Virus record (IMG/VR): IMGVR_UViG_3300033067_000504
Coordinates: 31,203 to 95,202 of that record
DNA: 64,000 nt
Strand: one strand, 5' to 3'
Source of the DNA: a virus
Taxonomy: Duplodnaviria > Heunggongvirae > Uroviricota > Caudoviricetes
Shown here: piece after piece, positions 12,701-52,332 of the stretch
Numbering within the stretch: the stretch's first letter is position 1
Layout: each line of letters opens with the position of its first letter
Notes under the pieces: generated by a model
Told to the model about the DNA's origin: nothing
Seen by the model: only the letters and a program-made list of their open reading frames with translations
Databases searched by the model: none
Made by a program: the position numbers and the translations under genes

Positions 12701-15126
12701 TTAACAAGTTTACCAGAGTTATTGTCATACCACTCCTGTATAACTGCAGCTCCAGTTGCATCTAACTTTGTTTCAAACTTATTACCATTCCAAGTACCAG
12801 CTAGTTCTTTAAGATATACTGAAGCTTGGTTTGCAGTCTTTAGTTCTGTATTAGCTATTTTGTCCTGTGTTTTCTTAGAATCAGGTATTGCTTTCTCTTC
12901 TTGATCTTGCTCTTTTTCTACTTTAGCAAATATTTGAGCAGCTACTTCAGGACCAAACATTCTGGCACTTTCTTCTCTGGTTAATCCATTAATTACTTCT
13001 GGATCAGTTTCTGGTAGGTTAGAATCCTCCAAGAATGTCTCATCAGGCATAGGAGGTCCATTCTCAATATAGTCAGGAGGCCTAGCAATCAGATCTTCAG
13101 AATCTAATGCAGGAGGCCCATCGTTTGTAGCCTCAAGTGTATCTTCAAGAGCTTGTTGTACACTTGTTTTAACTTGTTTCTTATTTTCATCTTGCTTAGC
13201 CTTCTTTATCTCATCAAATCTAGCTGCAATCTTAGCTTTAGTTTCTGGACTAGAAGCTTTCTTTTCCATTTCCATTAATTCAGGAACTGAAGCTTTAGGT
13301 AGTTTAGCTTCTATACCTTTATCAATAGCTTTTTGAGTATAAGCCTTTAACCCTTCAGGAGTAGTTAAACTAACTAAATCCTTTTTGATTGCTTGCATCT
13401 TCTCGTCTGTAGAAGCTAATTGAAAAGCTTTCTTAAACATATCAGCATCCTTACTGGTATGTAGTATTGTATTTACGTCCTGATCAGGGAATGCAATAGA
13501 AGCCTGCATCTGTAGTGCTGTAGTAAGTTCTGCTGCTTTAGCTACAAATTGAGGATTAGTTTCAGCTAGTTTAGCATAACCAGCAGCACTAATTTGAAGA
13601 TCCTTTATTGCAACAGCTTCAGAAGATAATTCCTTAGCTTTAATTGCTTCCTGTTTTAGATCATTTAACTCTCTAGTTAGATCATCATTTAATCTGGTTA
13701 AATGACGTTGTTCCAGTTTAGTAGCTAATACAGCTGTGTGTATTTCTCCAGGTAAATTAGAGTTCTTTAGTTTAGCTTGTTCATCTTGTAGGAATTGTGC
13801 GTCCTCTACGTATTTACGTATATTAGCCTTAGCTTCTGGTGAAGCTTTAGGATCTTTTTCTAATTGTTCTAGGTCTGCTTTGTATTGTGGTAACTTCCCT
13901 GTAGCTATTTTTTGAAAAGCTAATTCAGTAAATGTTAAGTCATCTAATTTCTTAGATGTACCTGTATCACTAGTATAATTAGCATTTTCTTTTTGAATAC
14001 CTCTTTTAGTTACTTTATCTGTTTGTTTCTTTAATACTTCAGAAATTTTAGGTTGAGTGGGTGACTCAGTGCTTTCTTTATCCTTTTCTTCTGCAGCTAT
14101 ACCAGCTCCAGCAAATACAGCCCCACCTACGCCGCCTAAGAAAGCTGATGCTTGAAACTCTGGATCTTGTACGTAGTCAGATAATCTTTTACCAAAACCT
14201 CTACCAAAGAATTCAGTCTCAGCTGTTGCTGAGGAGTAGGCCTCTTCTGCTGTTACAAACTGTCCAGCCTCTTCTAGTGATTCAGATCCTATAGTTTTAG
14301 CTATCTCTCCAATACTTCTACCCATTACACCTTTTGATGCAGTAGTAAACCCTTTTAGTAAAGAGTTGTACTGCATGAAATCCATAGCAGAGAATACCCA
14401 GTTAGTATTCCATGTTTTAGATGCTGCTTCTCCTGCTTTTTGTCTGGCTATTTCATCAGACATTGTAGGATCTTCTTTTAGCTTAGCATAAGTCTTCTCA
14501 AATACCTGATTAGCCTCCATTGTAGACTCAGCGTATCTTGAAGCAAATGTTGCAGCTACACTACCTGCAGTTTTAGTTGCAGTTGCTCCTAAGTTTGCAA
14601 GTTTAGCAAATTTACTTGCTACACCCGCAGCACCCATAGCTGGAACCATTAATGATAGTGCTGTACCAATTGTAGATGGAGCATTCTTAGCCCACCAAGT
14701 TGCATCACCAGGAGCAAATCCTTCCTGAGCATCATCTGTTTGATAAACCTTAGTAGCATCCTGTACTTTAGCTTTTGCCTCTTTCATAGCATCAGCTAAC
14801 CAGTTAGTATACTCTTGTTCATCACCTTGAAGCTTTTGTACAGCTTGTTCCCAGTCTAATAAATAAGAAGCTCCTTCTATTGTTCCTAAAGTAGCTTCAG
14901 AGATTGTTTGTACTGCAGCTTTACCAAGTAATCCCCATTTGGATTGATTTGTAGCAATGTAGTTTTCTACATTACTATCAAATGGTAACGCATAATCCTG
15001 AAGGCTGGTATCTTCTGATTTAGTCTCTGCTGGGTAAGCATCATCTTTTGTTACTTGCATTGCTGCAGGTGTAATCTTGTACTTACTCTCCCCAGGAGTT
15101 TCTATATATCCACCTAATTTGTACAT
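727..15126 (-). CDS. giant 4799-aa virion-associated multidomain protein, candidate crAss-like virion RNA polymerase fused to a zincin-like domain
   Basis: Uninterrupted 14.4-kb ORF at the distal end of the tail-gene block, which is where crAss-like phages place their giant RNAP/cargo ORFs. It contains GFDFDVDKSS (DNA ~6448-6462) resembling the Asp-triad loop of DPBB RNAPs, and YVILHELTHAF (DNA ~3987-4007), an HExxH zincin motif with a Glu ~19 aa downstream. The N-terminus is Gly/Ala-rich with coiled-coil segments. Confidence 0.6.
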   Translation of the reverse strand: MYKLGGYIETPGESKYKITPAAMQVTKDDAYPAETKSEDTSLQDYALPFDSNVENYIATNQSKWGLLGKAAVQTISEATLGTIEGASYLLDWEQAVQKLQGDEQEYTNWLADAMKEAKAKVQDATKVYQTDDAQEGFAPGDATWWAKNAPSTIGTALSLMVPAMGAAGVASKFAKLANLGATATKTAGSVAATFASRYAESTMEANQVFEKTYAKLKEDPTMSDEIARQKAGEAASKTWNTNWVFSAMDFMQYNSLLKGFTTASKGVMGRSIGEIAKTIGSESLEEAGQFVTAEEAYSSATAETEFFGRGFGKRLSDYVQDPEFQASAFLGGVGGAVFAGAGIAAEEKDKESTESPTQPKISEVLKKQTDKVTKRGIQKENANYTSDTGTSKKLDDLTFTELAFQKIATGKLPQYKADLEQLEKDPKASPEAKANIRKYVEDAQFLQDEQAKLKNSNLPGEIHTAVLATKLEQRHLTRLNDDLTRELNDLKQEAIKAKELSSEAVAIKDLQISAAGYAKLAETNPQFVAKAAELTTALQMQASIAFPDQDVNTILHTSKDADMFKKAFQLASTDEKMQAIKKDLVSLTTPEGLKAYTQKAIDKGIEAKLPKASVPELMEMEKKASSPETKAKIAARFDEIKKAKQDENKKQVKTSVQQALEDTLEATNDGPPALDSEDLIARPPDYIENGPPMPDETFLEDSNLPETDPEVINGLTREESARMFGPEVAAQIFAKVEKEQDQEEKAIPDSKKTQDKIANTELKTANQASVYLKELAGTWNGNKFETKLDATGAAVIQEWYDNNSGKLVNPTEVFASDKHGNLLINTPMIQPGMKVTLKVENDFPFTITPGFKPTSQDNFVINAYVEGHSKPVFQLPSADNKHLEDNKKGNAKLVEQLRKKVIAAGKLETTISDKSFGDVRKSDVSNSLEVLQFDYYQDENNNWKLGKLEHNPILGIYVGGLKLPNVESMKGMSKNEFERLKTLDTSLFAKEPQPGQTVVLRTNSKGDLKVIPLDNRQLDANEKGWVKSNIVKLLSNGQIETLREVLNIPNKGVGVLKKGEIQKLKRDKFYFIDFKGKELDEVLMPYKYGWARLTIKQLDDLMNKRPVAGLNLLSKTGVPFKDTNPKDRYNVTPETTTVLYSAIDTILDHSFKNVKKTNINSELPYTDPVTGTTYNSYFEYATATNSLQTKLLGAKNQGVGNESGFSIHNATVSLDPNPSQIVVDEVAPNELVIKNVPEVSKPTDQKKTKGKRSLSDLYGKTREVSLGKKLVNFNQILDSNPLAADVIEKLSNNRIALTGSLALSVQGSIYRDAQYGVHDLDFITNQLSSTDASKLMSETYPNAIKVYDFDSNGYKTLTFIVPAPGTKVADIRKSSKGRILSYNLVEDTSSPLPSIVGTYQFNDSKESFTGERGILVDIFIDPKERDLVSYQYNYSGKTRPLLISSHNDIFKTKLDIGRAKDKEDYSTYDLTEFGKHAFKVITPRELQWFKDTIGEEFLSIAKGVDRIIANGGIEAFGVYHNALVTIADYAETGTAYHEAFHFVFDNLLSPRQQQGVLKYGTEEQLAEDFRAYMLSGGKVKPKKLEVKNFFARLWQAIQNLLGLRSPIERLFKEIATTRLTAEQKANIAASIKDQDPSFRLLPGQVNSKQQNEIIAATTQEVVNIAREWAVKANLEFEDLFTQQGVIDKLFAEVKNKFLKDYDRIVAIPEDDRVDEDEYRRQIYISMGIIDPSKVEEDEKELIGQWEDIGTDLQVETGFKTEVLKNFAKWGFTVKLKDGTEYSVPEDGEDSSTDEIQELKAQDEGERIYDLDHTLVSPAKSLTQRIKSFLSTIPEPVISDKGEIVYNEDGTQRVKTTVLGSPQIIDFRKAFRNLTGKIADHGTPLTRLEELSKLDPISKAIYDALSKEVASGNQRLLAEFNTKLNLVRHPYVTFLYGRDKQGTPIAKVIAADRADLQRTIVNKWREGAVKRNFIKSDGTVVTTKAEHLLKKLLEAKSLITSTTPYADVEKQFKGVLKEIGIELAPQTWIEMSNKRGAPKTIRDMLFLEKSSSLLDFLQEAVKGEKDPFENLSKLSVLNRLAAVEKSYIDDVRADVFLNEAGNQVNSINTPSYIAEFINDLHNNGAEKAAFYLQDKFYQGNAFIDLWKHDKTASRVNFYLPSAMRKDEGKAKEFGDRTTTDSYLMRLIGFHNGGANEGFVSVGTLSDKSKQVFLTLPKHVGKNAESFLRKVMRNTVDNEISRIKRIKAGLPVDLSTYQDRGQKFVYLPELNNIQGITDSVSDGEVKPADLDRINKEIDQVITKFIDTNYAQFVSDLINEGVIKRNKEGKLENVEISPAILQGKEINTLLQEFFYNDIAWRTEMSKVFHGDMALYKDDDAYYKRGYQIVTPGLKAWDNPEKPLKLIRAIFQRIIKTNSDEYLLSLAQLIDPSVKSLKETGKSAVKQALKYKKVNKTDAQSLCTVHAWKNIMERFGAWTKDHQRVYDFAWGKNLTISEAIKANGYNPEQAKEMRGLAAKVVLQPFKPFQISDRVLDTPTGKMILKEQFKDSISPLIPDFAKKHNNQEGGYGSLLTYMTQHNIDIISSDDAVKVGAYGVITDFSVPPTSIQSREVSINDIRFPQIIPDKVKTEVTMLTQFWKLLPGNIDPKTKYSVGNKELTGEQVMEQLNELWAERTATSSKELQNKLGLDSTWKLSEDKAKRKDQLFKLKTLLQSELMSRDLNDNYHDSLQLILRNIDRPEFTLQLGFPMLGRKFLSVLTNLFKKNILKQKEPGYSMINLADFGISNKEQNSNLSFIRNNKGEIEEAEIGMPIEFFSQIKLNWIEDVDPITNKIKWEKLNQQQKEALQMIMVRIPTSNKSSMMPVRVAMILPKAMGSVVMVPGEGTTQMGFDFDVDKSSLIKRVLDKEGKIDKESIDTKLFDLAWSILTNKAHAEELLTPLAAPTLEEKVEEYSKLPDPLGSGNIVNTTNKGYVLSTVTDVRMERQNKQAKSGIGIASRFNTGHAMMQALKDFITVPGIRINTSNYKFNKVGGVLDNEGNLISNNHAQLQHAELDGAKDPLLAKLNVPPVLLPLAGYMVDVGMSLSLTMDFLNQPIIREWLRMYGISGGTNIYTATAKLLEEYPQIKAAVDDFRTGEEKKGKYITIPEIKEGLTIPISQNVVNQAKIFDDFTNYLNHAQLVSDLNTVLSIDTFQDMTGIEAIESFSAKVAKVTNQDSPVSISKRVFDLATAPPQAKRLAAFYKYSLNDAISLTSQFYPYFSNSYRDIKNTYANAAGIANLTDKDTLIKLNQFTDFYVLEGKNLLRPTLDKVSPNYTSRWSFFDNEKTIWRHLQSVVEKYPGLKDNALIKGIESIPTNRRDGIPMIGVVNTNSNLDKTQMIQGWWDMMTSPNEAVRILAGDLIRFAIYTSGFGYNTKSFIDLVPVQFWVQNGIAENHRVVLEGMYTTDESGQSATQLNSLGVVRSFIRHNFADLDIPEVFYYESKDGDTKTNLKNVKKTFTTGQQLDSFVVSDDDRTFNGRNSTETMPQFVKLWDYDSRRYRLYEASPSKPSRQETLYKEVQPLGEAGNFFEVSPNGDNKSYLDRNKDSGKPTPFGTGKSIDMPLNGGSVGTNKYVATYIPGHKTTPEVALQRIVERETNVRSKQLASVLLNNADKINSDLFAEALEPRIVDGKSYGRVGTYRMFESGNTKIIINNEANIKSDSAQRYVILHELTHAFISGVIAHPQTEREINFKRNMERLWEKAKKLDPKNKQIYNLQEFVAELASNAAFRDRLKSGGLWSTLLRLVRKVLGLPSEFDQALDEMYSIINETEQLQRISASDFDLLMENEKKTPSQRKRLDIIERVMSSLKAREERLRVFGQKEQADLLKKDIDVLKQLSGVKRNQFIVKFLAIVGKEVDALNKTVERLSAVDPANVNTGVLLAAKEQLDSYSVLDQIRLELRKNPEAFAPVKEAVPALLKQFEELFNTIKDRKEDIRNITINRVATVIKQKSNNPDLKIAEIKDRLEVADRDISWTNRLFDPLADSSDEALATLDKLIKHAFSEGSRLTNQDLYTKEPKEVTVEYKHYNEKNKKIGKDGFKYKAVGLFKALQDFEAWTGKKDTIADKFKAIIDTETLQNNSNGVSFISPISPRGKEILAIKEGSKDYPLRQFYENFVLGYLKSQEAIHLPSMRPGLRIPTIQRSLMEGILAEKGLGKLDVLKQEAIDTIRRRYDETDFRAVDENGKPQDYIPIRFISRQDGKDGRLSTREVSLDIATTVGIFMNEMHTYKQLEKIVADAELIKSALEQRELVKEGNRVEGHGLTGFLTRERKAITDPESGLMQTIKGSESNAYKAAETGIRRLIYGQFKKDAGQAKVFGQNIDIRKSVDSFMKFTGLRILFGNLAIPLTNLGMGHLTMAKEAIGGNLISMSNWKAGQAFYGKVLKDAILDLGNREKKTKFGRVYTYFNPADNQRPVDHIGIDTTKMRTVLPHLTRGLSESTEFNLSSVALGAVFDRFKAANSEGKEVSLYDAIEVSMDGKISLSKGYKYKSKSTLEGKDIDEVRDYALRLYQNMNGVYNKLDSSAIKETVAGSLIMFMRNWLAPGIATRYRLRHFDERLQQENEGHYISALVLFNNYFHPDNGFVKGTLDSLKTMLWMEATDPESLLLPNELGLPEEKKQQIINMRKANVRKTIFELYVIAGLSVLMFAGFDDDDQDSYALYMLARMRREMMTFISPSTAWDVLRSPSVAINTIDAMNKALYSTVNAAGALLTGEELKVMEQGKGKGLTEVWYRTRALTPLGQLDQFDELDTSVRLITKGWR

Positions 15127-25617: not shown

Positions 25618-26274
25618 TTAGTAAGTTGATGCTTCTGTCCAGTCTACAGTTACTGTTAGCTGCCAAGTTCCTGTACCAGGTACTGCAGGTAGTGTTAGCA
25701 CAAAACCCTCTTTTGCTGCTAATACTAAAGGATACTCTCCAGCTTGAACCTCAAGTAGGTTTGTTGGAGCTAGTATTTGTGGTTGTAGAGAACCTGTTAT
25801 TGGACAACCAGCCACTATTGTTGTAATAGGGTTGGCTTCTATTGTTTTAGTTCCTGCAACTAATGCTGTAGTATTTATAATCTGTGCAAAACCTAATAAA
25901 GAGTTAGCCATTGTAGTTTTCTTCTTTAGTATTGCTGCTGGAGTTAACGTAGTACCACCAGAACCGTTTGCTGACCAACCAGTAGCTTTAAACAAGCTTA
26001 TTTGCATTGGTACACCAGCTGCAAAGAACGTAGTTGATACTGCTGCACTAATAGTTATTGTGTTAATTATTGCTAGCCTTGTGGCATCTGTCCATCTAAA
26101 TTGGAATAATTCAGAGTTAGCAGCTAATCCTGCAGCTATAACACCACTACTCATACCAGCTTCAAAAGAACCATTATTGCCTGGATCTACTGGCTTTATG
26201 TTTACGTTTAGTGCACTGTGTAATGTTCCACCAATTTCTGCAGCTAAACCTGTTGTTCTACTTGTTATATCCAT
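25618..26274 (-). CDS. structural protein, 218 aa (Ala/Thr/Gly-rich)
   Basis: ORF; the antisense ORFs 25626-26290 are rejected in favour of this frame. Confidence 0.45.
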   Translation of the reverse strand: MDITSRTTGLAAEIGGTLHSALNVNIKPVDPGNNGSFEAGMSSGVIAAGLAANSELFQFRWTDATRLAIINTITISAAVSTTFFAAGVPMQISLFKATGWSANGSGGTTLTPAAILKKKTTMANSLLGFAQIINTTALVAGTKTIEANPITTIVAGCPITGSLQPQILAPTNLLEVQAGEYPLVLAAKEGFVLTLPAVPGTGTWQLTVTVDWTEASTY

Positions 26275-26286
26275 TTCTTTAAACTT

Positions 26287-26724
26287 TTAATGTTGTGTCT
26301 TTCTAATTACTAACTCAAATGTATCAGGAAGCATATCATAAATCATCTGTAAAGCTACAGTAGATTTAGCTACATCCATCATTCCATCTTTATTTAAGTC
26401 AACTATATCCATACCAGGAGCTATACATCCAAGTAATTGACTTACATAATTACCCCTATGAATACAGATTCCTATACGTTTAGGTACATTTTGTAATCTA
26501 AAGTGTGGATAGGGAAAATGATCAGTTGGTAGTTCCTTCTTAACAATATAAGGTACCCCTACATCTTTTGTTTCTGGTATGCAGTTTTGATTTATGTGAT
26601 TACCACCATCAAGATAAGGTAACTCCATAGTATGACAAACTAATTTACCATCTATAAATAAGTTACCAAGTGTTTCAGTTGGTAAATAAGTTCTTTCTAA
26701 TATTACTTGTTTAAGCTTGTCCAT
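26287..26724 (-). CDS. hypothetical protein, 145 aa
   Basis: ORF. Confidence 0.4.
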   Translation of the reverse strand: MDKLKQVILERTYLPTETLGNLFIDGKLVCHTMELPYLDGGNHINQNCIPETKDVGVPYIVKKELPTDHFPYPHFRLQNVPKRIGICIHRGNYVSQLLGCIAPGMDIVDLNKDGMMDVAKSTVALQMIYDMLPDTFELVIRKTQH

Positions 26725-27370
26725 CTTGTTTATCTAATGCTACCTCACCTATTTCTTTAGTCATTAAGACTTTTAATTCATTCTTTAATACATCTTGCAT
26801 AATAGTATTAATGATGTCATCAGGTATTTCCCACTGATCATCATCAGTATAACAAGCGACTCCAGAGCACTTAAATGGAGATAGTTGTCTGGCGTCTGGC
26901 CATATTCCCCTTACTCCAAGATACTCAAGGTCATCCTCATTATATACGTAAATCCTTTTATTAACGTAGAAGTACTTTGGTCTATCTGGTGTCCACTTGG
27001 AACCAAACTTTATTATCCAATATAACTGTTCTGGTGTTGTGTAAGTGTAGCTATCCAGTTTATCAGGATCTCCTACATAATCAAACAATCCATAAGAAGT
27101 ACGAATCGGTAGAGGGATTTCCTCTACCGTTCTAAGTACTGTACAATCAACTTCTACAGGGCATTCAGCTTTATCCACCCTTTCTAGTGCTGCAGAGAAG
27201 TCTTTCAAGAAGTACTTTCTCTGTTCTGGGTGTTTATCTATTACCTTCTGTAGCCAGTCTGCTCTCTTATAGTTTAGAATAACCTTCAACTCCTCTTGCA
27301 GGGGTATATTAAAAGGCTGTCCTACCCGATCAGCTAATAAGTCTACAAGTTCGTTTAAGGATATTTTCAT
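26711..27370 (-). CDS. hypothetical protein, 219 aa
   Basis: ORF; 14-nt overlap with the downstream gene. Confidence 0.45.
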   Translation of the reverse strand: MKISLNELVDLLADRVGQPFNIPLQEELKVILNYKRADWLQKVIDKHPEQRKYFLKDFSAALERVDKAECPVEVDCTVLRTVEEIPLPIRTSYGLFDYVGDPDKLDSYTYTTPEQLYWIIKFGSKWTPDRPKYFYVNKRIYVYNEDDLEYLGVRGIWPDARQLSPFKCSGVACYTDDDQWEIPDDIINTIMQDVLKNELKVLMTKEIGEVALDKQDGQA

Positions 27371-27375
27371 ACTAA

Positions 27376-27624
27376 TTAAGCTTGAGCTACTTCTTTTTTA
27401 GCTTTTTTCTCTTTTTTGGCAACTGGAAGATCAAATACTAATGTACCATCTTCTTTCAGCTGTGCATTTTCTATTGGACCAGCAACATTGTTTTCCTCAA
27501 GAATCAACTCAAGGATTGTGTTTTGCTTGTCTTCTAGCTCTTTGTAAGCTGCCATCAATTGTTGCTTTTGAGCTTCAATCGTTTTGATAGCTGTTACAGC
27601 CTTTGCTCTTAATTTAATTTCCAT
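27376..27624 (-). CDS. small coiled-coil protein, 82 aa
   Basis: ORF; charged helical sequence. Confidence 0.4.
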   Translation of the reverse strand: MEIKLRAKAVTAIKTIEAQKQQLMAAYKELEDKQNTILELILEENNVAGPIENAQLKEDGTLVFDLPVAKKEKKAKKEVAQA

Positions 27625-27695
27625 ATTAGTTTTATTTAGTTTAGATACAAAGATATGATAATTCTAGGGTATAATCCAAATATTTAGTAAGCTTT

Positions 27696-28175
27696 TTACT
27701 GGTCATAGGCGTGGTAAATAGCATCTTCTGTTTGTAGAATTTGAAGAATTAGGGGGTATACTTTAACTGGGGAGTTCATTATAACCGCAAAGAAGTAGTC
27801 AAATTGTCCCATAGGAGTATCTACAGTAGCTCCTAATGAGTCAATATAATGACCAGTTTGGTATTGAGTTATATTTCCTGACTCATCTCTTACTTCAGGA
27901 AGATCTTGAACAAATGTAGCATGTAAACCACTAGCGGGGTTTACCAAGGTACTATTGGTTGCTGTAAGTATTCTTGAAAAAGGTCTAACTTCTTGATTTG
28001 ATAGTTCTTTTCCATAACCATCTTGTTCTTTTGAATCACTTTCAAAAAAATGGCATGAAGTGTTAATTGATACAGATCCCCCATCTTTATTGACAGAGAA
28101 ACTAGACCATGTAATTGCCCTTTTTATCTTGGAAAAGGGACTATTTGAAATCGGTATGTAATGCTGTGGTAACAT
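27696..28175 (-). CDS. hypothetical protein, 159 aa
   Basis: ORF immediately upstream of the fibre gene. Confidence 0.4.
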   Translation of the reverse strand: MLPQHYIPISNSPFSKIKRAITWSSFSVNKDGGSVSINTSCHFFESDSKEQDGYGKELSNQEVRPFSRILTATNSTLVNPASGLHATFVQDLPEVRDESGNITQYQTGHYIDSLGATVDTPMGQFDYFFAVIMNSPVKVYPLILQILQTEDAIYHAYDQ

Positions 28176-28179
28176 ATTA

Positions 28180-31100
28180 TTAGGTTAAAAGTCCAAGGTT
28201 TTGTAATGCCTGTACTATTTGTTTTATTGTGTATCCTCCAAATGTAGAGGCATCATTTACTGCTGTTCCTGCGTTCGCAACAAAGGCCGCAGCAGCTACG
28301 GCTGTGGTAGGCCTTGTTATCGCCGCTACGTTATAGAATCCCAACTTACCAGTTGACCTTGATTGTACGTTTACAGCACCTTCTGCCCCGGAGCCATTGG
28401 GGACGCCAGATGAAATGTTTATGTTTCCTGCGGCATTATTTCCAACTGTATACCCGTTACCAGATTTTAAGTTAAAATCACCGCCTGTAACAGAGGCAGC
28501 GTGTCCATTTGCGGATGTGATGCTAAAAGCAGCAACTGCACCTGCTGTGTAAATGTTTACTATGCCCGTTGATGAAAACTGAACGGATGTTGTGGGTACG
28601 GCTGGGTCGTACATTAAAATAGCGTTGGCCTGAAGCCGCATCACTGCCGTTCCTTTAGTGATTATATTAATGTCAACATTAGCTGCAGATCCAGACGCTG
28701 TAAGAGTTCTAACCGATCCCGCCAACCCAGTGTCACCAAATGTTAGGTCACCACTGCTGGGTACAAATAATTTACTACTCACGGCATTTGTGCCGTTAGA
28801 CATCATCAATTCAGTGTTGGCAGCAGAGTTCGTAATACCACCTCCAGCGACGCCCACAGTTACCCAAGAGGCCCCATTGTAGTACTTCAGGTTTCCGGCG
28901 TCACTCGTAAGCATGCCCGCAGAAGGTGACGCAATACTCGCAGACGCCGCTGTAGTGAGCTTAAGCGCCTGAGTTGCGCTCTGGAGATCAAGTATTGTCG
29001 ACGCGTTTGTTATCGCCGTTCCACCGATAAGGGCTTGCCCAGATGCCACAAAATTACCATTGAGCCCAAGCGCCCAGTTGTTTGTTATAGTTACACCGGC
29101 ACCAGCAGACGGAGCATCTATATATACAGAGTATGCACGGGTAAATGTGGCCGATGTAGTGGTCTTGTTGTAGGTTATACCGCGAACATAGATGTCCCGC
29201 TGAGTTACTACAGTGCCATCCGCCCATGTTTTAGATGCAGTACCAGCACTTAACGAAGCACCCGACGAGAAGCTGGCGTTTGCATTTGCGCTGTTAAGAA
29301 TAATATTAGATTGCTCGGAAGCAGCAGTTATTGCTGTGTGTGCTGCTGCATCAATCCTAGTTGCTGGAATCCATGAAGCAGAAAGATTAGATTGTAATAT
29401 GTAAAATTTAGCTAAATCAGCACTTGCAAGTGCATAACTACCTATTCTTACATTACCAGAAGTGTAAAAGGCAAATGGCTGATCTCCTAATATTGCTCCA
29501 GATACGTTTACACCTTGACCTCCAAATATAATTCCACGCCCTGTACCCGTTGTTCTAAGTGAAAAATAGTAAGGTGCTCCATAACCAGCAGACTCCAATA
29601 AAACAGTATCTGCTAAAATTGCTGTGTTTCCTAGTGATATATTGTAACCTCCACTGCCTGTAGCATTTGTACCAACAAAAGAAGCTATAGTTTTTGTTGT
29701 ATTATTTGCCAGAAAAGCTGAACCAACCCCCAAAGAAATTGCATTTGTAATTGTTGCATTAGTTCCCGCTATAGGATTATCAATATAAACTGTATAGGCG
29801 TTTGTGAACGTCTGGGCACTGGCACCTGCAAGAGTAATGCCCCTAAAATACGTGCTTCTCTGTGTAGCAACAGTTCCACCTCCAGCCCAAGTTTGGGTTG
29901 CGGTCTGAAAGTCTTGATTTATATTTTCAAGTGTATTAGTGATCGCAGTGTGTGCTCCCGGATCTATTCTAAGCGTCGGTATCCACCCAGTTGATAGGTT
30001 TGCTTGTCTTACGTATAACTTTGCGGCATCTGCAACAACTGCACCAAAACTTGCAGACCATATAGTATAGTTGCCAAGAGTTCCGCTAAGAAGCGTTGAA
30101 TTTACTTGAAAGTTTCCAATGTTTGAGTAATATACTTTTGGCGTTCCGTTTTGGGAAAATCCCCACCCAGTAGACCCTATTGCATTGAACCCAAAGTCGT
30201 TATTTCCACCAGATAGACTTCCTACTCCGGGTCCAATCTCCCAGTTTATTCCACCAGCAGTTAACCAAATTGGTTTTGTTACACCCAGTGCATAGTTGGC
30301 TGAAAAAGTGTTATTAAATGTGGGGTTAATGTAAACGGCATAGGCGGTTTGTGTAGCCGGATTCCCCACATTTCTAGTTAATGTGGGATCAAATACATAT
30401 CCAAATAAGGTATCGCTTGCTGTGTTGCGTGAGGTGAATGTTCCAGCAAATTCAACATGATTTTGATTATTTGCTGTGGCAGTCCATGTGCCGCTAAATA
30501 AGAGTTGGTTTGCTGTATTGGAGGTTATGGTATTTGTACCAGTAAGAGTACCACCGGAGGCCAGCAGCCAAGAACCTGCATTAGTAACAACCGTAGCATT
30601 ATTACCTGGATCATCAGTTACAGTAAGTCCAACAAATTTTAAGTTGGTTCTTTGAGTAAAGCTTGTAGGAACGCTATCCTGTATTACGTGTCCTGTAGTT
30701 AATAAAGAAGTCCAGGCAACATTACCACCACTTATAGATAATACTTGTCCGTTAGTTCCTGGTGCTAAAGGTAAAGCATTACCACCAATTGTTCCAACCC
30801 ATAGATAGTTAGCTGTTAAGCTTGGTGATCTTAATGTAATAGCGTTAAGTTGTGCTTGTACATCAGAACTTAAACCATTGAGAAATTGTAGTTTAGCTGT
30901 AGTTATACCAAAAGCAGCTAGACCAGTTAATAGATTTACATCAGCAGTGTTAGCTGTAACACCTGTTAAGGAAGAAACACTTAATGTTGACCATTGAGTG
31001 TTGTAATTAGTTCCATCTATTTTATTTAAATACTGACCTGCAGTACCACCAGTGGGTAATCCATTGGCGGTAGCAGCTCCCCAAGCTGGTACTCCACCAG

Positions 31101-31782
31101 TAACTGTTAGTACTTGTCCTGCAGTACCAATAGGTAATCTAGTCCATACACCACCAGTGTAAATAATTGTATCACCAGTTGCTGGAGTTAATGCAGAGCT
31201 AAAAGAAAGTTTGTTACTTAGTAAAGTTGTTAAAGAGGATGATATATCTAAAAAACCTAATGTTGTAGTTGTTGTAGTACTGTGTATTGGTAAACCATTA
31301 GCATCAGATATTAATACTCTATTAGCTGTTATTGCAGTGTTTTCAGTAAATATACCAGAAGCATCATTGATAAGGATTCTATTAACATTACCAGTTGCTA
31401 GTTTAGTTCTAGTGATTGCTGCAGCTACAGCTATGTCAGCATTCTTTATCTGTAAAGTTAGATTTAACTTTGAGTAGGCTATGGCAGCTGCACTATTGAT
31501 ATTATTATTAGTAATTACATCTGCAGCAATAGAAGATACACCAGTGTTGGAGAAGGTTATAGCTCCAGTTGGTAATACTGGAGTAGCTAAGTTTGAACCA
31601 TTACCAATAAGTATATATCCATTAGTTAATGCTGTGGTTAAGTAAGAAGATGGATCTATAGGGTTTATAGTTCCAACACTTTTATCTGCAGCATCTCTAG
31701 TTAATACAGGATCACCAATACCTGAGCTTAAATTCCCAAGTATTGTTAATCCTTTTCTTATTACTGTTTGTTTAGTCGCCAT
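28180..31782 (-). CDS. tail fibre / receptor-binding protein, 1200 aa, with an internal ~120-aa domain duplication and a GC-rich C-terminal third
   Basis: Thr/Gly/Asn/Ala-rich fibre-like composition. Two diverged copies of a domain (AKLYVRQANLSTGWIPTLRIDPGAHTAIT...YTVYIDNP at aa ~585-690 and AKFYILQSNLSASWIPATRIDAAAHTAIT...YSVYIDAP at aa ~790-910). DNA 28200-29400 is markedly GC-richer than its flanks. Confidence 0.6.
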   Translation of the reverse strand: MATKQTVIRKGLTILGNLSSGIGDPVLTRDAADKSVGTINPIDPSSYLTTALTNGYILIGNGSNLATPVLPTGAITFSNTGVSSIAADVITNNNINSAAAIAYSKLNLTLQIKNADIAVAAAITRTKLATGNVNRILINDASGIFTENTAITANRVLISDANGLPIHSTTTTTTLGFLDISSSLTTLLSNKLSFSSALTPATGDTIIYTGGVWTRLPIGTAGQVLTVTGGVPAWGAATANGLPTGGTAGQYLNKIDGTNYNTQWSTLSVSSLTGVTANTADVNLLTGLAAFGITTAKLQFLNGLSSDVQAQLNAITLRSPSLTANYLWVGTIGGNALPLAPGTNGQVLSISGGNVAWTSLLTTGHVIQDSVPTSFTQRTNLKFVGLTVTDDPGNNATVVTNAGSWLLASGGTLTGTNTITSNTANQLLFSGTWTATANNQNHVEFAGTFTSRNTASDTLFGYVFDPTLTRNVGNPATQTAYAVYINPTFNNTFSANYALGVTKPIWLTAGGINWEIGPGVGSLSGGNNDFGFNAIGSTGWGFSQNGTPKVYYSNIGNFQVNSTLLSGTLGNYTIWSASFGAVVADAAKLYVRQANLSTGWIPTLRIDPGAHTAITNTLENINQDFQTATQTWAGGGTVATQRSTYFRGITLAGASAQTFTNAYTVYIDNPIAGTNATITNAISLGVGSAFLANNTTKTIASFVGTNATGSGGYNISLGNTAILADTVLLESAGYGAPYYFSLRTTGTGRGIIFGGQGVNVSGAILGDQPFAFYTSGNVRIGSYALASADLAKFYILQSNLSASWIPATRIDAAAHTAITAASEQSNIILNSANANASFSSGASLSAGTASKTWADGTVVTQRDIYVRGITYNKTTTSATFTRAYSVYIDAPSAGAGVTITNNWALGLNGNFVASGQALIGGTAITNASTILDLQSATQALKLTTAASASIASPSAGMLTSDAGNLKYYNGASWVTVGVAGGGITNSAANTELMMSNGTNAVSSKLFVPSSGDLTFGDTGLAGSVRTLTASGSAANVDINIITKGTAVMRLQANAILMYDPAVPTTSVQFSSTGIVNIYTAGAVAAFSITSANGHAASVTGGDFNLKSGNGYTVGNNAAGNINISSGVPNGSGAEGAVNVQSRSTGKLGFYNVAAITRPTTAVAAAAFVANAGTAVNDASTFGGYTIKQIVQALQNLGLLT

Positions 31783-33377
31783 TATACTTCATAAGTTATA
31801 GTTACCCAACCACGGCTACTTGCTGTGGATTGATAGTTAGCATTAGCAAAATATCCACCAGGAGAAAGACTACTTACAACTACTGATCCAGCACTCCAGT
31901 ATACAGGTGAAACTGTGCCATTACTTGCTGTCATAGCATCTATAAAGATTGTTCCACTATCATCTACTATTGTTACAAAGACATTTCTTATTTTAGAGTC
32001 TGTAACTCCATGAGCTACTGAAGTAGATGTCGCAAATCCTGGGTTCATATTCCAGGTTGGTAAAGCAATTACCTTAGTTTTTAAGTAAGGACCAGCACCA
32101 CCATTGGTTCTAATTCCATTAGTTACATCCAATCCACCAGCAACAGTTACTATTGTACCACTATCAGTAATTATACTGTTTGTAAGTGTTGTAGAGGAAG
32201 ATGCTTTAGGTACTGTTCCTGTAGTTAATCCAGTTATACCTCCTGGTACGTTAGCCCAAGCAGGTACACCACCTACAACAGTTAATACCTGGTTAGTAGC
32301 TCCTATGGCTAGTCTTGTAGTTACATTAGAAGCATTTCTTATTACTATATCCCCAATGCTAGTCATTGGATCGGGCATTTTAGCAGCTAACAATGTTGTT
32401 AAGCTGCTACCTACATCCACATATCCTAACTTTGTAGTTAGTGTTGCTGTAGTTATACCACTAGAAGTTAAGAAACCACTAGCATCAGTACCAACTACCA
32501 CACTAGCTGTTAAAGCCTGTAGTTTGTTAACAAGTATACCTGCTCCTGCTGCTATTACAGCATTAGTGACTGGTGTTCCATTAAAAGAAGTTACACCAGT
32601 GTTAGTTATTGTAATTACACCACTTACTGTTTGTGAAGTAGCTTGATTACTTACGTTACCAATATATATTGTTCCATTAGGTAATACTGAACTTACTGGT
32701 CCAGAACCATTACCATTATTAGGGATAAAGTATCTACTACCAACTACTGTCCAAGTACCACTTGTAGGAGTAGCTAATAGTTGTATATTACCTGCTGAGA
32801 ATATTACATCAAACTCTATAAGACTAGTATCACCTACAATATCTGGTGTAGAGTTATCGAACATGTCAATAGCACTACCATCAGATTTCCAGGTTCCAAT
32901 TATAGACCCTGATCTCTGTTCACCAGTTCCTGACTTAGTTACTGTATAATCCCACCTTGCAGCCTTAGCACTAGCTATAATAAAGGTATCCACTACAGTT
33001 GGTATGGCAAATGTTGATTGGAAGTCTGTAGCTAGACCTGTGGCTCCAGTTGCTCCAGTGTCACCAGTAGCCCCCTTAGGACCAGGTAATCCAAAGAGAA
33101 TTGCTGGTGGAGAAGCTACGTTTACTGTTGGAGCTGCTGGGAACTGATTTAACTCACATAATTGAATTAAGCACTCAAGAATGTAGTTCATCTGAGTGAT
33201 GTCATCAAGCTTAAGTCTTTCTTCCCAAGCCTCTAAGTAACTAAGAATAAGGTCGGCCTTACTCCACTTTTTATTTAAAGCCTTGCCAAGTCTCTTATTT
33301 AGAATTAAAGAGTCCACAAGAGTAACTAAATACCCTTGAGATTGATAGATTATTGTATTTGCTCTTAAATCAAGCAT
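31782..33377 (-). CDS. tail fibre protein, 531 aa, with a short collagen-like Gly-X-Y run
   Basis: GLPGPKGATGDTGATGATG (seven Gly-X-Y triplets) after an N-terminal helical region; the rest is Thr/Gly/Ser-rich. Start codon overlaps the stop of the 1200-aa fibre gene. Confidence 0.55.
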   Translation of the reverse strand: MLDLRANTIIYQSQGYLVTLVDSLILNKRLGKALNKKWSKADLILSYLEAWEERLKLDDITQMNYILECLIQLCELNQFPAAPTVNVASPPAILFGLPGPKGATGDTGATGATGLATDFQSTFAIPTVVDTFIIASAKAARWDYTVTKSGTGEQRSGSIIGTWKSDGSAIDMFDNSTPDIVGDTSLIEFDVIFSAGNIQLLATPTSGTWTVVGSRYFIPNNGNGSGPVSSVLPNGTIYIGNVSNQATSQTVSGVITITNTGVTSFNGTPVTNAVIAAGAGILVNKLQALTASVVVGTDASGFLTSSGITTATLTTKLGYVDVGSSLTTLLAAKMPDPMTSIGDIVIRNASNVTTRLAIGATNQVLTVVGGVPAWANVPGGITGLTTGTVPKASSSTTLTNSIITDSGTIVTVAGGLDVTNGIRTNGGAGPYLKTKVIALPTWNMNPGFATSTSVAHGVTDSKIRNVFVTIVDDSGTIFIDAMTASNGTVSPVYWSAGSVVVSSLSPGGYFANANYQSTASSRGWVTITYEV

Positions 33378-50066: not shown

Positions 50067-50124
50067 GCTTCAAATATAAAACTAGTTTATTAGATCTCCA
50101 AATATTTTTTGTGTTTTATTTTAG

Positions 50125-50208
50125 TGCCTCTGGTAGGACTCGAACCTACTCACCCCTAAGGGAACAGATTTACAGTCTGTCGTAACTCTCCAACTTTACC
50201 GCATAGGC
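50125..50208 (-). tRNA. tRNA-Tyr (GTA), type II with long variable arm
   Basis: Hand-folded: anticodon stem-loop ACAGA-CTGTAAA-TCTGT; T-arm GTAGG-TTCGAGT-CCTAC; long variable arm. One mismatch in the acceptor stem; no encoded CCA. Confidence 0.7.
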
Positions 50209-50213
50209 TTAAG

Positions 50214-50299
50214 TACTCCTAACAGGAATCGAACCTGTACCCCTATTACTAGGGAAGGGATTTTAAGTCCCTCGCGTCTACCAGTTCCGCCATAGGAGC
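50214..50299 (-). tRNA. tRNA-Leu (TAA)
   Basis: Hand-folded: anticodon loop CTTAAAA; T-arm ACAGG-TTCGATT-CCTGT; long variable arm; G1-U72. Confidence 0.7.
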
Positions 50300-50304
50300 A
50301 ATTG

Positions 50305-50377
50305 AGGGGAAGGTAAGGATCGAACTTACGACCTAGACATTAACAGTGTCTTGCTACTTCCGCTGAGCTACTTCCCC
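50305..50377 (-). tRNA. tRNA-Asn (GTT)
   Basis: Acceptor GGGGAAG/CTTCCCC perfect; anticodon AGACA-CTGTTAA-TGTCT; T-arm GTAAG-TTCGATC-CTTAC. Confidence 0.75.
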
Positions 50378-50382
50378 TTTAG

Positions 50383-50464
50383 TACTTTAGGAGGGACTCG
50401 AACCCCCACGCCTTTCGGCACCAGATCCTAAGTCTGGCGTGTCTACCAGTTCCACCACTAGAGC
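50383..50464 (-). tRNA. tRNA-Leu (TAG)
   Basis: Anticodon CCAGA-CTTAGGA-TCTGG; variable-arm hairpin GCCGAAAGGC; T-loop TTCGAGT; acceptor has G1-U72 and one C-A mismatch. Confidence 0.6.
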
Positions 50465-50469
50465 GTAAG

Positions 50470-50541
50470 GTGTTAGATGAGATTTGAACTCACGATCAAG
50501 GTTCCACAAACCTATGCTTTAGGCCGCTAAGCTACTAACAC
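50470..50541 (-). tRNA. tRNA-His (GTG), no genomically encoded G-1
   Basis: Acceptor GTGTTAG/CTAACAC perfect; anticodon TAGGT-TTGTGGA-ACCTT; T-arm GTGAG-TTCAAAT-CTCAT; discriminator C; position -1 is U. Confidence 0.7.
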
Positions 50542-50543
50542 AG

Positions 50544-50620
50544 TAAGGTATCCAGGATTTGAACCTGGGAATCTCTTCCTTCCAAGGGAAGCGAGGACGA
50601 CCGGACTCCTCCAATACCTT
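50544..50620 (-). tRNA. tRNA-Pro (TGG)
   Basis: Acceptor AAGGTAT/ATACCTT; D-arm GAGG-AGTCCGGTCGT-CCTC; anticodon CTTCC-CTTGGAA-GGAAG; T-arm CCAGG-TTCAAAT-CCTGG. Confidence 0.75.
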
Positions 50621-50761: not shown

Positions 50762-51301
50762 TTAAGCAAGTTTTTGTTGGATTATTTCTTCTAATTTTTT
50801 AGGATAAGCCACCATTATTTGCCTAATTACAAGGTTTTTAGGGTCTGCTGATATTAAAGGTTCTTTCCAATCAAACCAAACTCTTAGGAAATCTTCATGA
50901 GGTATTCCTCTCTTTTCCCCTATTTCTGGATCTAGTAAGTGTATCTTTTCCTTATCCAATTCAACTACTACACTAGAATGTCCATTAGGCATATCCTCCA
51001 AACCAGAGTTTAAACCTGGACTAAACCAATCTACTATTACTGGGATATTGTGGTCTAACCAGTACTTAATGTCGTCTAGTGTGCTGTCGTTTTGAATAAT
51101 ACATCCCAGTCCATACGACTCGATTGCTGCTTTCATGTCAGTATCGTAACAACCAAGTTTGTAGGTATGGTTACATCTTTTAGCTATTTCTTCCTCAGTA
51201 GTATCTATGTGGTAGTAATACAGTATCATTCGTATTGATGCTGGGCCACATAAGCTAGAATCACTCTGTTTGAATATTGGTATCTCTATCATAGGGTACA
51301 A
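50762..51301 (-). CDS. C39-like papain-fold cysteine peptidase, 179 aa
   Basis: QSDSSLCGPASIRMIL (Gln...Cys catalytic motif of C39/C39-like peptidases) with a downstream NGHSSVVV His and a later Asp. Confidence 0.5.
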   Translation of the reverse strand: MYPMIEIPIFKQSDSSLCGPASIRMILYYYHIDTTEEEIAKRCNHTYKLGCYDTDMKAAIESYGLGCIIQNDSTLDDIKYWLDHNIPVIVDWFSPGLNSGLEDMPNGHSSVVVELDKEKIHLLDPEIGEKRGIPHEDFLRVWFDWKEPLISADPKNLVIRQIMVAYPKKLEEIIQQKLA

Positions 51302-51426
51302 AGGTCTAAAAAGTAGGGGTAGGAGTCAAGGATATTAGTGGATATAACTTAGTCCCCTGGGTCTTAAGGGGTTAGAAAGTACCCCCCTACCCTAAATTAT
51401 TAAGCCTGTGAATTGAGTAAGGTACC

Positions 51427-52294: not shown

Positions 52295-52332
52295 TTGGGC
52301 AATATTGCCACATTATCTAACCCTATACGGTT

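What the first reader, a model, noticed from the sequence alone, without database searches (positions are those of the whole stretch)
28180..31782. Tail-fibre gene with an internal domain duplication and a compositionally foreign (GC-rich) C-terminal third
Within an otherwise ~33% GC genome, 28200-29400 (the C-terminal receptor-distal part of the 1200-aa fibre, minus strand) is ~50% GC (e.g. GCCGCAGCAGCTACGGCTGTGGTAGGCC, CGCCTGAGTTGCGCTCTGGAGATCAAG). The protein contains two diverged copies of a ~110-aa module: aa ~585-690 in AT-rich codons and aa ~790-910 in GC-rich codons. This is the signature of a horizontally acquired or recently swapped receptor-binding module grafted onto a resident fibre, i.e. 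a host-range determinant.
Basis: seen in the sequence. Interest (0 to 1): 0.5.

Follow-up and report, generated by a model that had tools for sequence, protein, structure and literature searches.

The report
Mosaic tail fibre of crAss-like phage
This 1200-residue gene is the probable host-recognition tail fibre of a crAss-like phage. It is a patchwork of exchangeable pieces, at least two of them imported from phages with a different base composition, which is a well-known way for phages to change host range.

Summary

- **Composition.** The window is 36.8% GC and 28200-29400 is 47.5% GC. About 45% of that excess comes from Ala/Gly/Thr-rich amino-acid composition.
- **Two foreign blocks, not one.** GC at four-fold degenerate sites (GC4) is 0.12 genome-wide. 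It is 0.31 in aa 405-662 and 0.37 in aa 830-1170. These blocks are separated by resident-like stretches: aa 1-404 (0.07) and aa 663-829 (0.09).
- **Block 1.** Window 29743-30571 is 89.9% nt-identical, ungapped, to a fibre in a 46%-GC phage that otherwise shares only the 159-aa ORF downstream (70% aa) and one weak hit.
- **Sister phage.** A 97%-identical phage diverges exactly across 27697-31074. It carries a homologous tip in resident AT-rich codons (GC4 0.07).
- **The two copies.** They have equal codon bias (GC3 0.28 vs 0.31). The module is an old shaft repeat, present 1-4 times in relatives.

Verdict: an ordinary but clean, multi-layered mosaic receptor-binding fibre. The donor of the GC-rich tip was not found. 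The fibre role is inferred.

The parts
28180..31782 (-). Whole fibre ORF, 1200 aa (putative receptor-binding tail fibre).
   Evidence: ORF. It lies in a crAss-like structural block containing Crass_capsid, CrAss_Ring_1, CrAss_Ring_2 and crAss_MUZ_C. The identical protein is found on 5 contigs, and two of them, from different samples, were read at the DNA level.
31075..31782 (-). aa 1-236: N-terminal anchor segment shared with the sister phage.
   Evidence: The 97% nt identity to L005 runs through this segment and stops at nt 708 of the gene. GC4 is about 0.07. aa 48-234 are paralogous to aa 228-374 of the upstream 531-aa ORF.
30572..31074 (-). aa 237-404: remainder of the family-conserved N-terminal domain. 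Resident composition; absent from the sister phage.
   Evidence: About 75 homologues align to aa 1-357/366/400. There is no counterpart in L005. GC3 is 0.14 and GC4 is 0.07.
29743..30571 (-). Foreign block 1 (aa 405-680): a recently exchanged shaft segment that includes most of repeat copy 1.
   Evidence: 829 nt, ungapped, 89.9% identical to L003 10277-11105, with synonymous sites mostly identical. GC4 is 0.31, z = 4.2, p = 5e-10. The GC3 change point at aa 404|405 coincides with the start of the homology.
29704..30051 (-). Repeat copy 1 (aa 578-693; HMM core aa 593-688).
   Evidence: BLASTP between the copies gives 46% identity, E = 3e-21. The module HMM scores 3.5e-35. GC3 is 0.284.
29296..29742 (-). 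aa 681-829: block of resident-like composition, covering the spacer and the start of repeat copy 2.
   Evidence: GC3 is 0.13 and GC4 is 0.09. Identity to P0002 is only 33-57% aa.
29041..29439 (-). Repeat copy 2 (aa 782-914; HMM core aa 797-910).
   Evidence: HMM 5.1e-30. GC3 is 0.308. It is 73% identical to copy 2 of P0002 and 57% identical to its own partner.
28273..29295 (-). It spans the end of copy 2, a linker and the tip.
   Evidence: GC4 is 0.37, z = 5.3, p = 1e-20, peaking at 0.52 in aa 955-1001. Ala GCG makes up 16 of 57 Ala codons here, against 22 of 1175 genome-wide. No close relative was found.
28348..28836 (-). Tip module (aa 983-1145), beginning with the junction motif GGITNSAANTELMMSNGTNA.
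   Evidence: Many homologues start aligning at aa 980-986. The sister phage joins this module directly to aa 234. The AF2 monomer model has moderate confidence and no fold match.
28183..28347 (-). Conserved C-terminal module of 55 aa (aa 1146-1200).
   Evidence: It is 70-80% identical to the C-termini of at least 60 protein clusters of 185-1900 aa. One of these proteins also carries a T7 tail-fibre N-terminal domain. There is no Pfam, PHROG or PDB match.
27696..28175 (-). 159-aa accessory ORF that travels with the distal fibre.
   Evidence: It is 70% aa identical to the ORF just downstream of P0002 in L003. It is absent from sister phage L005. The family has 42 cluster representatives, and in the four extra contexts read (three with DNA) it sat beside a large or fibre-like gene in at least two. 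There is no family annotation.
27697..31074 (-). Cassette that differs between this phage and its 97%-identical sister phage.
   Evidence: blastn of window 18180-41782 against L005 gives 97% identity on both outer sides. Inside the cassette the only match is 68% identity over the tip.

Best explanation
**What it is.** The gene encodes the long receptor-binding tail fibre of a crAss-like (Crassvirales) phage, and it is a multi-layered recombination mosaic.

**Architecture.**
- aa 1-404 is an N-terminal anchor conserved across the phage family. It is written in the phage's own AT-rich codons and presumably fixes the fibre to the tail or to the neighbouring 531-aa fibre protein.
- aa 405-982 is the shaft. 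It is built from exchangeable modules and includes two copies of a roughly 100-aa repeat that occurs 1-4 times in relatives.
- aa 983-1145 is the tip, which starts at a conserved junction motif.
- aa 1146-1200 is a highly conserved terminal module.
- A 159-aa accessory gene follows.

**History.**
- Everything from aa 405 to the end of the 159-aa gene is a cassette also found in an otherwise unrelated 46%-GC phage.
- Within that cassette, small-scale recombination at conserved motifs has produced blocks of very different age and composition.
- aa 405-680 was exchanged recently (90% nt identity).
- aa 830-1170 was imported from an unidentified GC-richer source and is not yet ameliorated.
- aa 681-829 and the last 30 codons have resident-like composition.

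**Consequence.** Swapping these blocks changes fibre length and tip, and hence probably host range.

**Shown:** the mosaic structure, the compositional blocks, the exchange with another phage, and the cassette polymorphism between sister phages.

**Inferred:** the fibre identity, receptor binding, trimeric state, the role of the 159-aa protein and the direction of transfer.
For: - **crAss-like context.** Crass_capsid scores 1.5e-62, Ring_1 1.3e-32, Ring_2 7e-15 and MUZ_C 7.6e-07.
- **Modularity.** About 75 homologues share only aa 1-366/400. Their C-termini carry K1-lyase_C, C1q, SO2946-like_C, DUF5907 or PTL_trimer.
- **GC3 change points** fall at aa 404|405, 662|663, 829|830 and 1170|1171.
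- **GC4 by block:** 0.07, 0.31, 0.09, 0.37 and 0.12, against a genome value of 0.116 (bins: sd 0.047, max 0.268).
- **Block 1.** Window 29743-30571 is 89.9% identical over 829 ungapped nt to L003. Its 5' edge coincides with the change point at aa 404|405, and its 3' edge (aa 680) lies 18 codons past the change point at aa 662|663.
- **L003 is otherwise unrelated.** It shares only the fibre, the 159-aa ORF (70% aa) and one 23% hit across 22.7 kb.
- **Reciprocal shift in L003.** Its distal fibre is AT-shifted relative to its own genome: GC3 z = -2 to -4, and GC4 0.25 against 0.50.
- **Sister phage L005.** Identity is 97% to the window over the left flank and the first 708 nt of the fibre gene, then breaks. 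On the far side it is 87% over 26290-27697 and 97.7% beyond 25611. Its fibre joins aa 234 directly to a tip homologous to window aa 983-1200 (59% aa, 68% nt), with GC4 0.07.
- **Not an assembly chimera.** Contigs from two independent samples are 100% and 99.99% identical to the window across the whole locus.
- **Repeat family.** There are 2 copies here and 1-4 copies in 26 relatives. Each copy is closer to modules elsewhere than to its partner.
Against: - No experimental or annotated homologue exists. Pfam, NCBIfam and PDB give nothing for this protein, and PHROGs gives only one weak hit to a family of unknown function. 'Tail fibre' and 'receptor binding' therefore rest on context and architecture.
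- No donor was found for block 2; the best relative is 59% aa identical.
- By plain GC3, only aa 901-1000 lies outside the genome's range. The case for foreignness of the rest rests on four-fold sites.
- The structure models are of moderate to poor confidence (pLDDT 66 and 62) and gave no fold match.
- The 159-aa family is not always next to a fibre ending in the same C-terminal module.
- L005 looks like an indel-rich assembly, so the exact fibre length there is uncertain.
Confidence: 0.8

Rival explanations
1. The GC-rich tract is only a by-product of an Ala/Gly/Thr/Ser-rich fibre sequence, with no foreign origin.
For: GC2 of the tract is 0.56, against 0.37 genome-wide. The GC expected from its residues under genomic codon usage is 0.416 against 0.368, which is about 45% of the observed excess. 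Another GC island, at 63253-63930, is purely compositional: GC2 0.59 and GC3 0.23.
Against: The N-terminal 400 aa have a similar GC2 (0.52) but only 35.9% GC. At four-fold degenerate sites, which do not depend on residue content, the tract has 0.37 GC against 0.116 (p = 1e-20). The homologous tip of the sister phage has 0.07.
Confidence: 0.05
2. The codon shift reflects selection on codon usage or mRNA properties in a highly expressed virion gene, not lateral transfer.
For: The major capsid gene has the highest whole-gene GC3 in the window (0.383).
Against: The capsid gene's GC4 is only 0.16. The shift is intragenic, with sharp boundaries that coincide with homology boundaries. Expression level cannot differ between blocks of one ORF. 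G-ending rare codons are enriched as well as C-ending ones: Ala GCG is 28% of Ala codons here, against 1.9% genome-wide.
Confidence: 0.05
3. The two modules arose by a recent in-situ tandem duplication. One copy was later overwritten by foreign DNA, which is essentially the first reader's reading.
For: The copies are clearly homologous, and copy 2 extends into the GC-rich block.
Against: The two copies are only 55% nt identical and have equal GC3. Both copies are present in the same order in P0002 from a different phage. Copy 1 is 84% identical to P0002 copy 1 and copy 2 is 73% identical to P0002 copy 2, but the two window copies are only 57% identical to each other. Relatives carry 1-4 copies of the same module.
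Confidence: 0.07
4. The distal fibre is diversified by a diversity-generating retroelement or another targeted hypermutation system, which would distort its composition.
For: Some matching proteins carry the Mtd_N domain of the Bordetella phage tropism determinant. Fibre tips are classic targets of such elements (my own knowledge).
Against: No second copy of any part of the gene, and therefore no template repeat, exists anywhere in the 64-kb window. No reverse transcriptase was seen among the proteins scanned, although not every ORF was scanned. The compositional blocks are 250-340 codons long, not about 40 codons.
Confidence: 0.02
5. The mosaic is a metagenomic assembly chimera, joined at motifs conserved between co-occurring phages.
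For: The window comes from metagenome assemblies, and the block edges lie at conserved motifs.
Against: The identical 1200-aa protein occurs on 5 contigs. Contigs from two different runs (SRR32380194, SRR31616089) match the window at 100% and 99.99% over 23.6 kb and 10.4 kb that span every junction.
Confidence: 0.02

Closest known systems
Host-recognition modules (tail fibre plus cognate chaperone) shared by distantly related Alteromonas phages A5 and V22 (Gonzalez-Serrano et al. 2023, PMC10579305)
   Same: A fibre's distal part and the small gene just downstream occur together in phages that otherwise share almost nothing. A domain duplication within the fibre accompanies length variation.
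   Different: The 159-aa protein here has no detectable similarity to any annotated chaperone family, and its model is too poor to compare folds. The shared cassette is itself a patchwork, with roughly 40-60% to 90% nt identity between blocks. The phages here are uncultured.
Domain shuffling in phage receptor-binding proteins (Smug et al. 2023, PMC10684548) and recombination between conserved motifs in the T-even distal fibre locus (Tetart et al. 1998, J Mol Biol; cited from my own knowledge)
   Same: There is a constant N-terminal anchor with interchangeable distal domains. The exchange junctions sit at short conserved motifs, here ...GGVPAW...AGSW|LLASGG and GGITNSAANTELM.
   Different: This occurs in a crAss-like phage. 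The blocks are also distinguishable by base composition, because the exchanging phages differ by about 10% GC.
PhicrAss001 tail fibre system (gp22 and partner fibres; Bayfield et al. 2023, PMC10172136)
   Same: The virion gene set is the same (capsid, ring proteins 1 and 2, muzzle), with the fibre genes placed in that block. More than one fibre protein is encoded (the 531-aa and 1200-aa ORFs).
   Different: No similarity to crAss001 was seen: tblastn against the INPHARED phage collection found nothing. Which protein docks in the tail hub is unknown here.

Membership tests
Crassvirales (crAss-like phage) structural gene block | Genome encodes the crassvirus major capsid protein, paralogous tail ring proteins and the muzzle protein. 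| tested here: met
   PF23898 Crass_capsid 1.5e-62, PF24228 Ring_1 1.3e-32, PF25702 Ring_2 7.3e-15 and PF25729 MUZ_C 7.6e-07.
Modular phage receptor-binding tail fibre | N-terminal anchor conserved among related phages, joined to unrelated alternative C-terminal domains. | tested here: met
   About 75 of 110 homologues align only to aa 1-357/366/400. Their C-termini carry K1-lyase_C, C1q, SO2946-like_C, DUF5907 or PTL_trimer.
Modular phage receptor-binding tail fibre | Homotrimeric fibrous structure present in the virion and binding a host surface receptor. | not testable with these tools
   Only a monomer AF2 model was possible (pLDDT 66, extended chain without secondary structure for aa ~1020-1140). 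No solved homologue exists.
Horizontally exchanged gene segment | Synonymous-site composition deviates from the resident genome. | tested here: met
   GC4 is 0.31 (aa 405-662) and 0.37 (aa 830-1170), against 0.116 genome-wide; p = 5e-10 and 1e-20.
Horizontally exchanged gene segment | High identity to an otherwise unrelated genome, or discordance between close relatives. | tested here: met
   Block 1 is 89.9% identical over 829 nt to L003, which shares nothing else except the 159-aa ORF. The cassette 27697-31074 differs between 97%-identical sister phages.
Horizontally exchanged gene segment | An identifiable donor lineage for the GC-rich tip (block 2). | tested here: not met
   The best relative is 59% aa identical (P0112). 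Scans of viral, metagenome and genome collections found nothing closer.
Fibre plus cognate chaperone cassette | A small gene immediately downstream that co-occurs with the fibre's distal part in different phages. | tested here: met
   The 159-aa ORFs are 70% identical and both lie directly after the fibre stop codon in the window and in L003. The ORF is absent from sister phage L005, whose cassette differs.
Fibre plus cognate chaperone cassette | Sequence or fold similarity of the small protein to known tail-fibre chaperones or assembly proteins. | tested here: inconclusive
   There are no Pfam, PHROG or NCBIfam hits. The AF2 model has pLDDT 62.5, too low for a fold search.
Peptidase_S74 intramolecular-chaperone fibres | C-terminal S74 chaperone or auto-cleavage domain. 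| tested here: not met
   There is no PF13884 hit in the 1200-aa protein. The domain appears only in a neighbouring short fibre of an unrelated locus, L010.
Diversity-generating retroelement target | Template repeat matching the variable region, plus a reverse transcriptase nearby. | tested here: not met
   blastn of the gene against the whole window returns only the self match. Reverse transcriptase was not searched for exhaustively.

The most novel reading that the evidence does not exclude
The last 55 residues (aa 1146-1200, consensus LGFxGxTPIxxPTTxxAAATFVANAGTAVNDASTFDGYTIKQVVKALRNLGLL) form an unrecognised, very widespread fibre-terminal domain. It is kept at 70-80% identity on fibres of otherwise unrelated phages, including one with a T7-type anchor. 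Together with the junction motif GGITNSAANTELM, it may act as a universal assembly or capping element. It may also serve as the 3' homology arm that lets tip cassettes, and accessory genes such as the 159-aa ORF, move between crassviruses and unrelated phages of different GC content.
Probability: 0.25. Interest if true: 0.55.

Novelty: new member of a known kind. Interest (0 to 1): 0.33.

Why it matters
Mosaic receptor-binding proteins are the main route by which phages change host range. Here the principle shows up at sub-genic resolution in an uncultured crAss-like phage. Block boundaries defined by synonymous-site composition coincide with homology boundaries to another phage. A sister genome shows the same locus in an alternative state.

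This gives concrete module boundaries that could be used for fibre engineering or for host-range prediction in crassviruses. It also shows recent gene flow between a crassvirus and a phage with about 10% higher GC. Two uncharacterised families are flagged for follow-up: the 55-aa C-terminal module and the 159-aa accessory protein. It is not a new kind of system.

Tried and rejected
- **INPHARED phages.** DNA and protein searches of the fibre (blastn distant, megablast of 24 kb, tblastn) found no match.
- **Family and structure libraries.** Pfam, PHROGs, NCBIfam and PDB sequence searches of the fibre, the tip profile and the C-terminal profile gave nothing useful.
- **AF2 model of aa 782-1200.** pLDDT was 66, and Foldseek against PDB and BFVD gave no significant match.
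- **AF2 model of the 159-aa protein.** pLDDT was 62.5, so it was not taken to a fold search.
- **Scans with aa 830-1200.** Viral, metagenome and genome collections yielded only short or distant matches.
- **Third repeat copy.** aa 403-501 as a diverged third copy is not supported: HMM E = 0.96 and hhalign probability 5%.
- **3' junction with the sister phage.** I looked for a sharp recent junction inside the C-terminal module. Identity is only 73-93% there, so no clear junction exists.
- **Diversity-generating retroelement.** Rejected, because no repeat of the gene exists in the window.
- **Assembly chimera.** Rejected, because independent contigs are identical.
- **Strict pairing of the 159-aa family with the conserved C-terminal module.** Rejected. 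In L009 the upstream gene ends differently, and in L010 the family lies upstream of an S74 fibre.


Full report
**1. The observation**

The minus strand carries one uninterrupted ORF at 28180-31782 encoding 1200 aa.

- The window as a whole is 36.8% GC, not about 33%.
- The tract 28200-29400 is 47.5% GC. This is the highest of all 1200-nt stretches (mean 36.7%, sd 2.25), with 300-nt peaks of 53%.
- Two other GC islands in the window have trivial causes. One is a cluster of six tRNAs at 50124-50620. The other is an Ala/Asp/Tyr tandem-repeat ORF at 63253-63930.
- The internal duplication is real. aa 578-693 and aa 782-914 align at 46% identity, with E = 3e-21 and z = 31 against shuffles. At the DNA level the copies are only 55% identical.

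**2. How much of the GC excess is codon choice**

The tract has GC1 0.49, GC2 0.56 and GC3 0.38. The other genes of the window have 0.48, 0.37 and 0.26.

With genomic codon usage, its residues would give 41.6% GC. About 45% of the excess over 36.8% is therefore amino-acid composition, and about 55% is codon choice.

By plain GC3 in 100-codon bins, only aa 901-1000 (0.53) exceeds all 149 bins from other genes (mean 0.255, sd 0.07).

Four-fold degenerate sites give a cleaner measure. The genome value is 0.116 (91 bins: sd 0.047, max 0.268). The fibre blocks are listed below.

| Fibre block | GC4 | Statistics |
|---|---|---|
| aa 1-404 | 0.07 | resident-like |
| aa 405-662 | 0.31 | z = 4.2, p = 5e-10 |
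| aa 663-829 | 0.09 | resident-like |
| aa 830-1170 | 0.37 | z = 5.3, p = 1e-20; 0.52 in aa 955-1001 |
| aa 1171-1200 | 0.12 | resident-like |

- Likelihood segmentation of GC3 puts the change points at aa 404|405, 662|663, 829|830 and 1170|1171.
- Rare G-ending codons rise as well. Ala GCG makes up 16 of 57 Ala codons in block 2, against 22 of 1175 genome-wide.
- The major capsid gene has a GC4 of only 0.16, so expression-linked bias does not explain the pattern.

There are therefore two foreign-looking blocks, not one.

**3. The two copies do not differ in codon bias**

- GC3 is 0.284 in copy 1 and 0.308 in copy 2 (Fisher p = 0.78). At the 62 identical residues it is 0.306 in both.
- Copy 1 begins in foreign block 1 and ends in the resident-like block. 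Copy 2 begins in the resident-like block and ends in foreign block 2.
- An HMM of the roughly 98-aa module finds 2 copies here and 1-4 copies in 26 of the collected homologues.
- Copy 1 is 84% identical to copy 1 of P0002, and copy 2 is 73% identical to copy 2 of P0002. The two window copies are 57% identical to each other over the core.
- The module is therefore an old shaft repeat, not a recent duplication.
- A proposed third copy at aa 403-501 is not supported (hhalign probability 5%).

**4. What the gene is**

- The neighbourhood is a crassvirus virion block: Crass_capsid (1.5e-62), Ring_1, Ring_2 and MUZ_C.
- The protein has no Pfam, NCBIfam or PDB match, only one weak PHROGs hit to a family of unknown function, and no match in the INPHARED phage collection.
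- Among 110 homologues from metagenomes, about 75 align only to aa 1-357/366/400.
- Those homologues continue into different C-terminal parts, some carrying K1-lyase_C, C1q, SO2946-like_C, DUF5907 or PTL_trimer.
- That is the standard architecture of a phage receptor-binding fibre: a constant anchor and a variable distal part.
- aa 48-234 are paralogous to aa 228-374 of the upstream 531-aa ORF (38% identity, E = 1e-17). In phicrAss001 several fibre proteins assemble on a hub-bound fibre, gp22 (PMC10172136).
- The fibre role is inferred, not shown.

**5. Direct evidence of exchange: an otherwise unrelated phage**

P0002 lies on contig L003, which is 46% GC with GC4 0.50 in its other genes. It matches the window fibre from aa 405 onward, and its N-terminus is different.

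- At the DNA level, window 29743-30571 (aa 405-680) is 89.9% identical over 829 ungapped nt to L003 10277-11105, and most synonymous positions are the same.
- Two weaker pieces follow. Window 29057-29373 is 72% identical. Window 27693-28273, which covers the last 30 codons plus the whole 159-aa ORF, is 68% nt and 70% aa identical.
- Between these pieces, identity falls to 23-57% aa.
- The 5' edge of the 90% piece coincides with the compositional change point at aa 404|405, and its 3' edge (aa 680) lies 18 codons past the one at aa 662|663. The start of the third piece (28273) coincides with the change point at aa 1170.
- Outside the fibre and the 159-aa ORF, a tblastn of 26 window proteins against the 22.7 kb of L003 gave only one 23% hit.
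- In L003 the distal fibre is AT-shifted relative to its own genome (GC3 z = -2 to -4; GC4 0.25 against 0.50). This mirrors the situation in the window.
- The cassette pool thus has an intermediate composition and moves between phages of different GC content.

**6. Direct evidence of exchange: a sister phage**

Contig L005 (96.6 kb) is 97% identical to the window over the left flank, up to nt 708 of the fibre gene (aa 236; window 31075). On the far side, identity is 87% over 26290-27697 and returns to 97.7% beyond 25611.

- Window aa 237-986 has no counterpart in L005.
- The tip (aa 987-1200) matches at only 68% nt.
- The 159-aa ORF is replaced by about 2.5 kb of other DNA.
- The L005 fibre joins ...GGVPVW directly to GITNSAANTELM..., the motif that opens the tip at aa 983 in the window.
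- The L005 tip has GC3 of 0.04-0.16 and GC4 of 0.07.
- The same domain therefore sits in resident codons in one phage and in GC-shifted codons in its 97% sister. This is the strongest argument that the window's tip was imported.
- L005 appears indel-rich, so its exact ORF length is uncertain.
- The window is not a chimera. Contigs from two other runs match it at 100% and 99.99% across the whole locus.

**7. The donor of block 2 was not found**

A second protein search with aa 867-1200, and scans of the viral, metagenome and genome collections, gave nothing closer than 59% aa identity. 'Recent' acquisition of the GC-rich tip is therefore unproven. What is shown is that it has not been ameliorated to the resident composition.

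**8. Other parts**

- **C-terminal module.** The last 55 aa are 70-80% identical to the C-termini of at least 60 protein clusters of 185-1900 aa. One of these (P0167) also has a T7 tail-fibre N-terminal domain. The module has no Pfam, PHROG or PDB match. The AF2 model ends in a short hairpin and a helix. I infer a role in assembly, trimerisation or capping, but this is weakly supported.
- **159-aa protein.** It belongs to a small family of 42 cluster representatives. In the four extra contexts read (three with DNA), at least two placed it beside a large or fibre-like gene, though not always one with the same C-terminus. Its model is poor. By analogy with the fibre-chaperone modules shared among distant Alteromonas phages (PMC10579305), I propose an accessory or chaperone role. 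This is an inference.
- **Structure searches.** None gave a significant match.
- **Retroelement.** There is no template repeat for a diversity-generating retroelement.

**9. Verdict**

The specific model, a resident AT-rich copy plus an imported GC-rich copy with one foreign third, is wrong.

The locus is a multi-block mosaic receptor-binding fibre, together with an accessory gene. Mosaicism of this kind is well known (PMC10684548; Tetart et al. 1998, from my own knowledge). I rate it as a new member of a known kind and of modest interest.

Noticed in passing
window 28183-28347 (fibre aa 1146-1200): A 55-aa C-terminal module is 70-80% identical across at least 60 protein clusters from many metagenomes, including a fibre with a T7-type N-terminal anchor. 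It has no Pfam, PHROG or PDB match. It is much more conserved than the rest of these fibres, which is unusual for a fibre C-terminus.
   Followed up: partly
window 27696-28175: This 159-aa ORF belongs to a small unannotated family (42 cluster representatives). It sits directly after the fibre gene here and in L003, and beside a large or fibre-like gene in at least two of four further contexts. Its function is unknown and the AF2 model is poor.
   Followed up: partly
window 25618-26274: This 218-aa ORF lies between the ring-protein genes and is a second locus with no DNA match in the 97%-identical sister phage L005. There it is replaced by about 2.7 kb. A 152-aa antisense ORF (25832-26290) overlaps it and is probably spurious.
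   Followed up: no
window 31782-33377: The upstream 531-aa ORF shares a paralogous segment (aa 228-374) with fibre aa 48-234 and has a weak collagen-like G-x-y stretch at aa 98-114. It is probably a second fibre protein.
   Followed up: partly
window 28783-28839 (fibre aa 982-1000) and L010 5430-6230: The junction motif GGITNSAANTELMxSNGTNA opens the tip module in many unrelated fibres. It also occurs near the N-terminus of a stand-alone 266-aa fibre with a Peptidase_S74 domain. It looks like a recombination or docking joint.
   Followed up: partly
window 50124-50620: A cluster of six tRNA genes (Tyr, Leu-taa, Asn, Leu-tag, His, Pro) on the minus strand explains one of the other GC-rich islands.
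   Followed up: yes
window 63253-63930: This 225-aa ORF has a long Ala/Asp/Tyr tandem repeat (AADAAAYA...). It is 49% GC purely through GCN codons (GC2 0.59, GC3 0.23) and has no Pfam hit.
   Followed up: partly
window 51300-55387: About 4 kb at the switch between minus-strand and plus-strand genes has no ORF of 100 aa or more and no Rfam match. It may hold many small genes or regulatory DNA.
   Followed up: no
window 727-15126: A giant 4799-aa ORF has no Pfam hit. By position it is the counterpart of the very large virion proteins of crass-like phages. L003 has a 4073-aa protein with helicase-type hits in a similar position.
   Followed up: no
L005 12001-13000: The alternative cassette of the sister phage contains its own GC-rich island (41-47% GC in a 37% GC genome). 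This suggests that its replacement genes are also imported.
   Followed up: no
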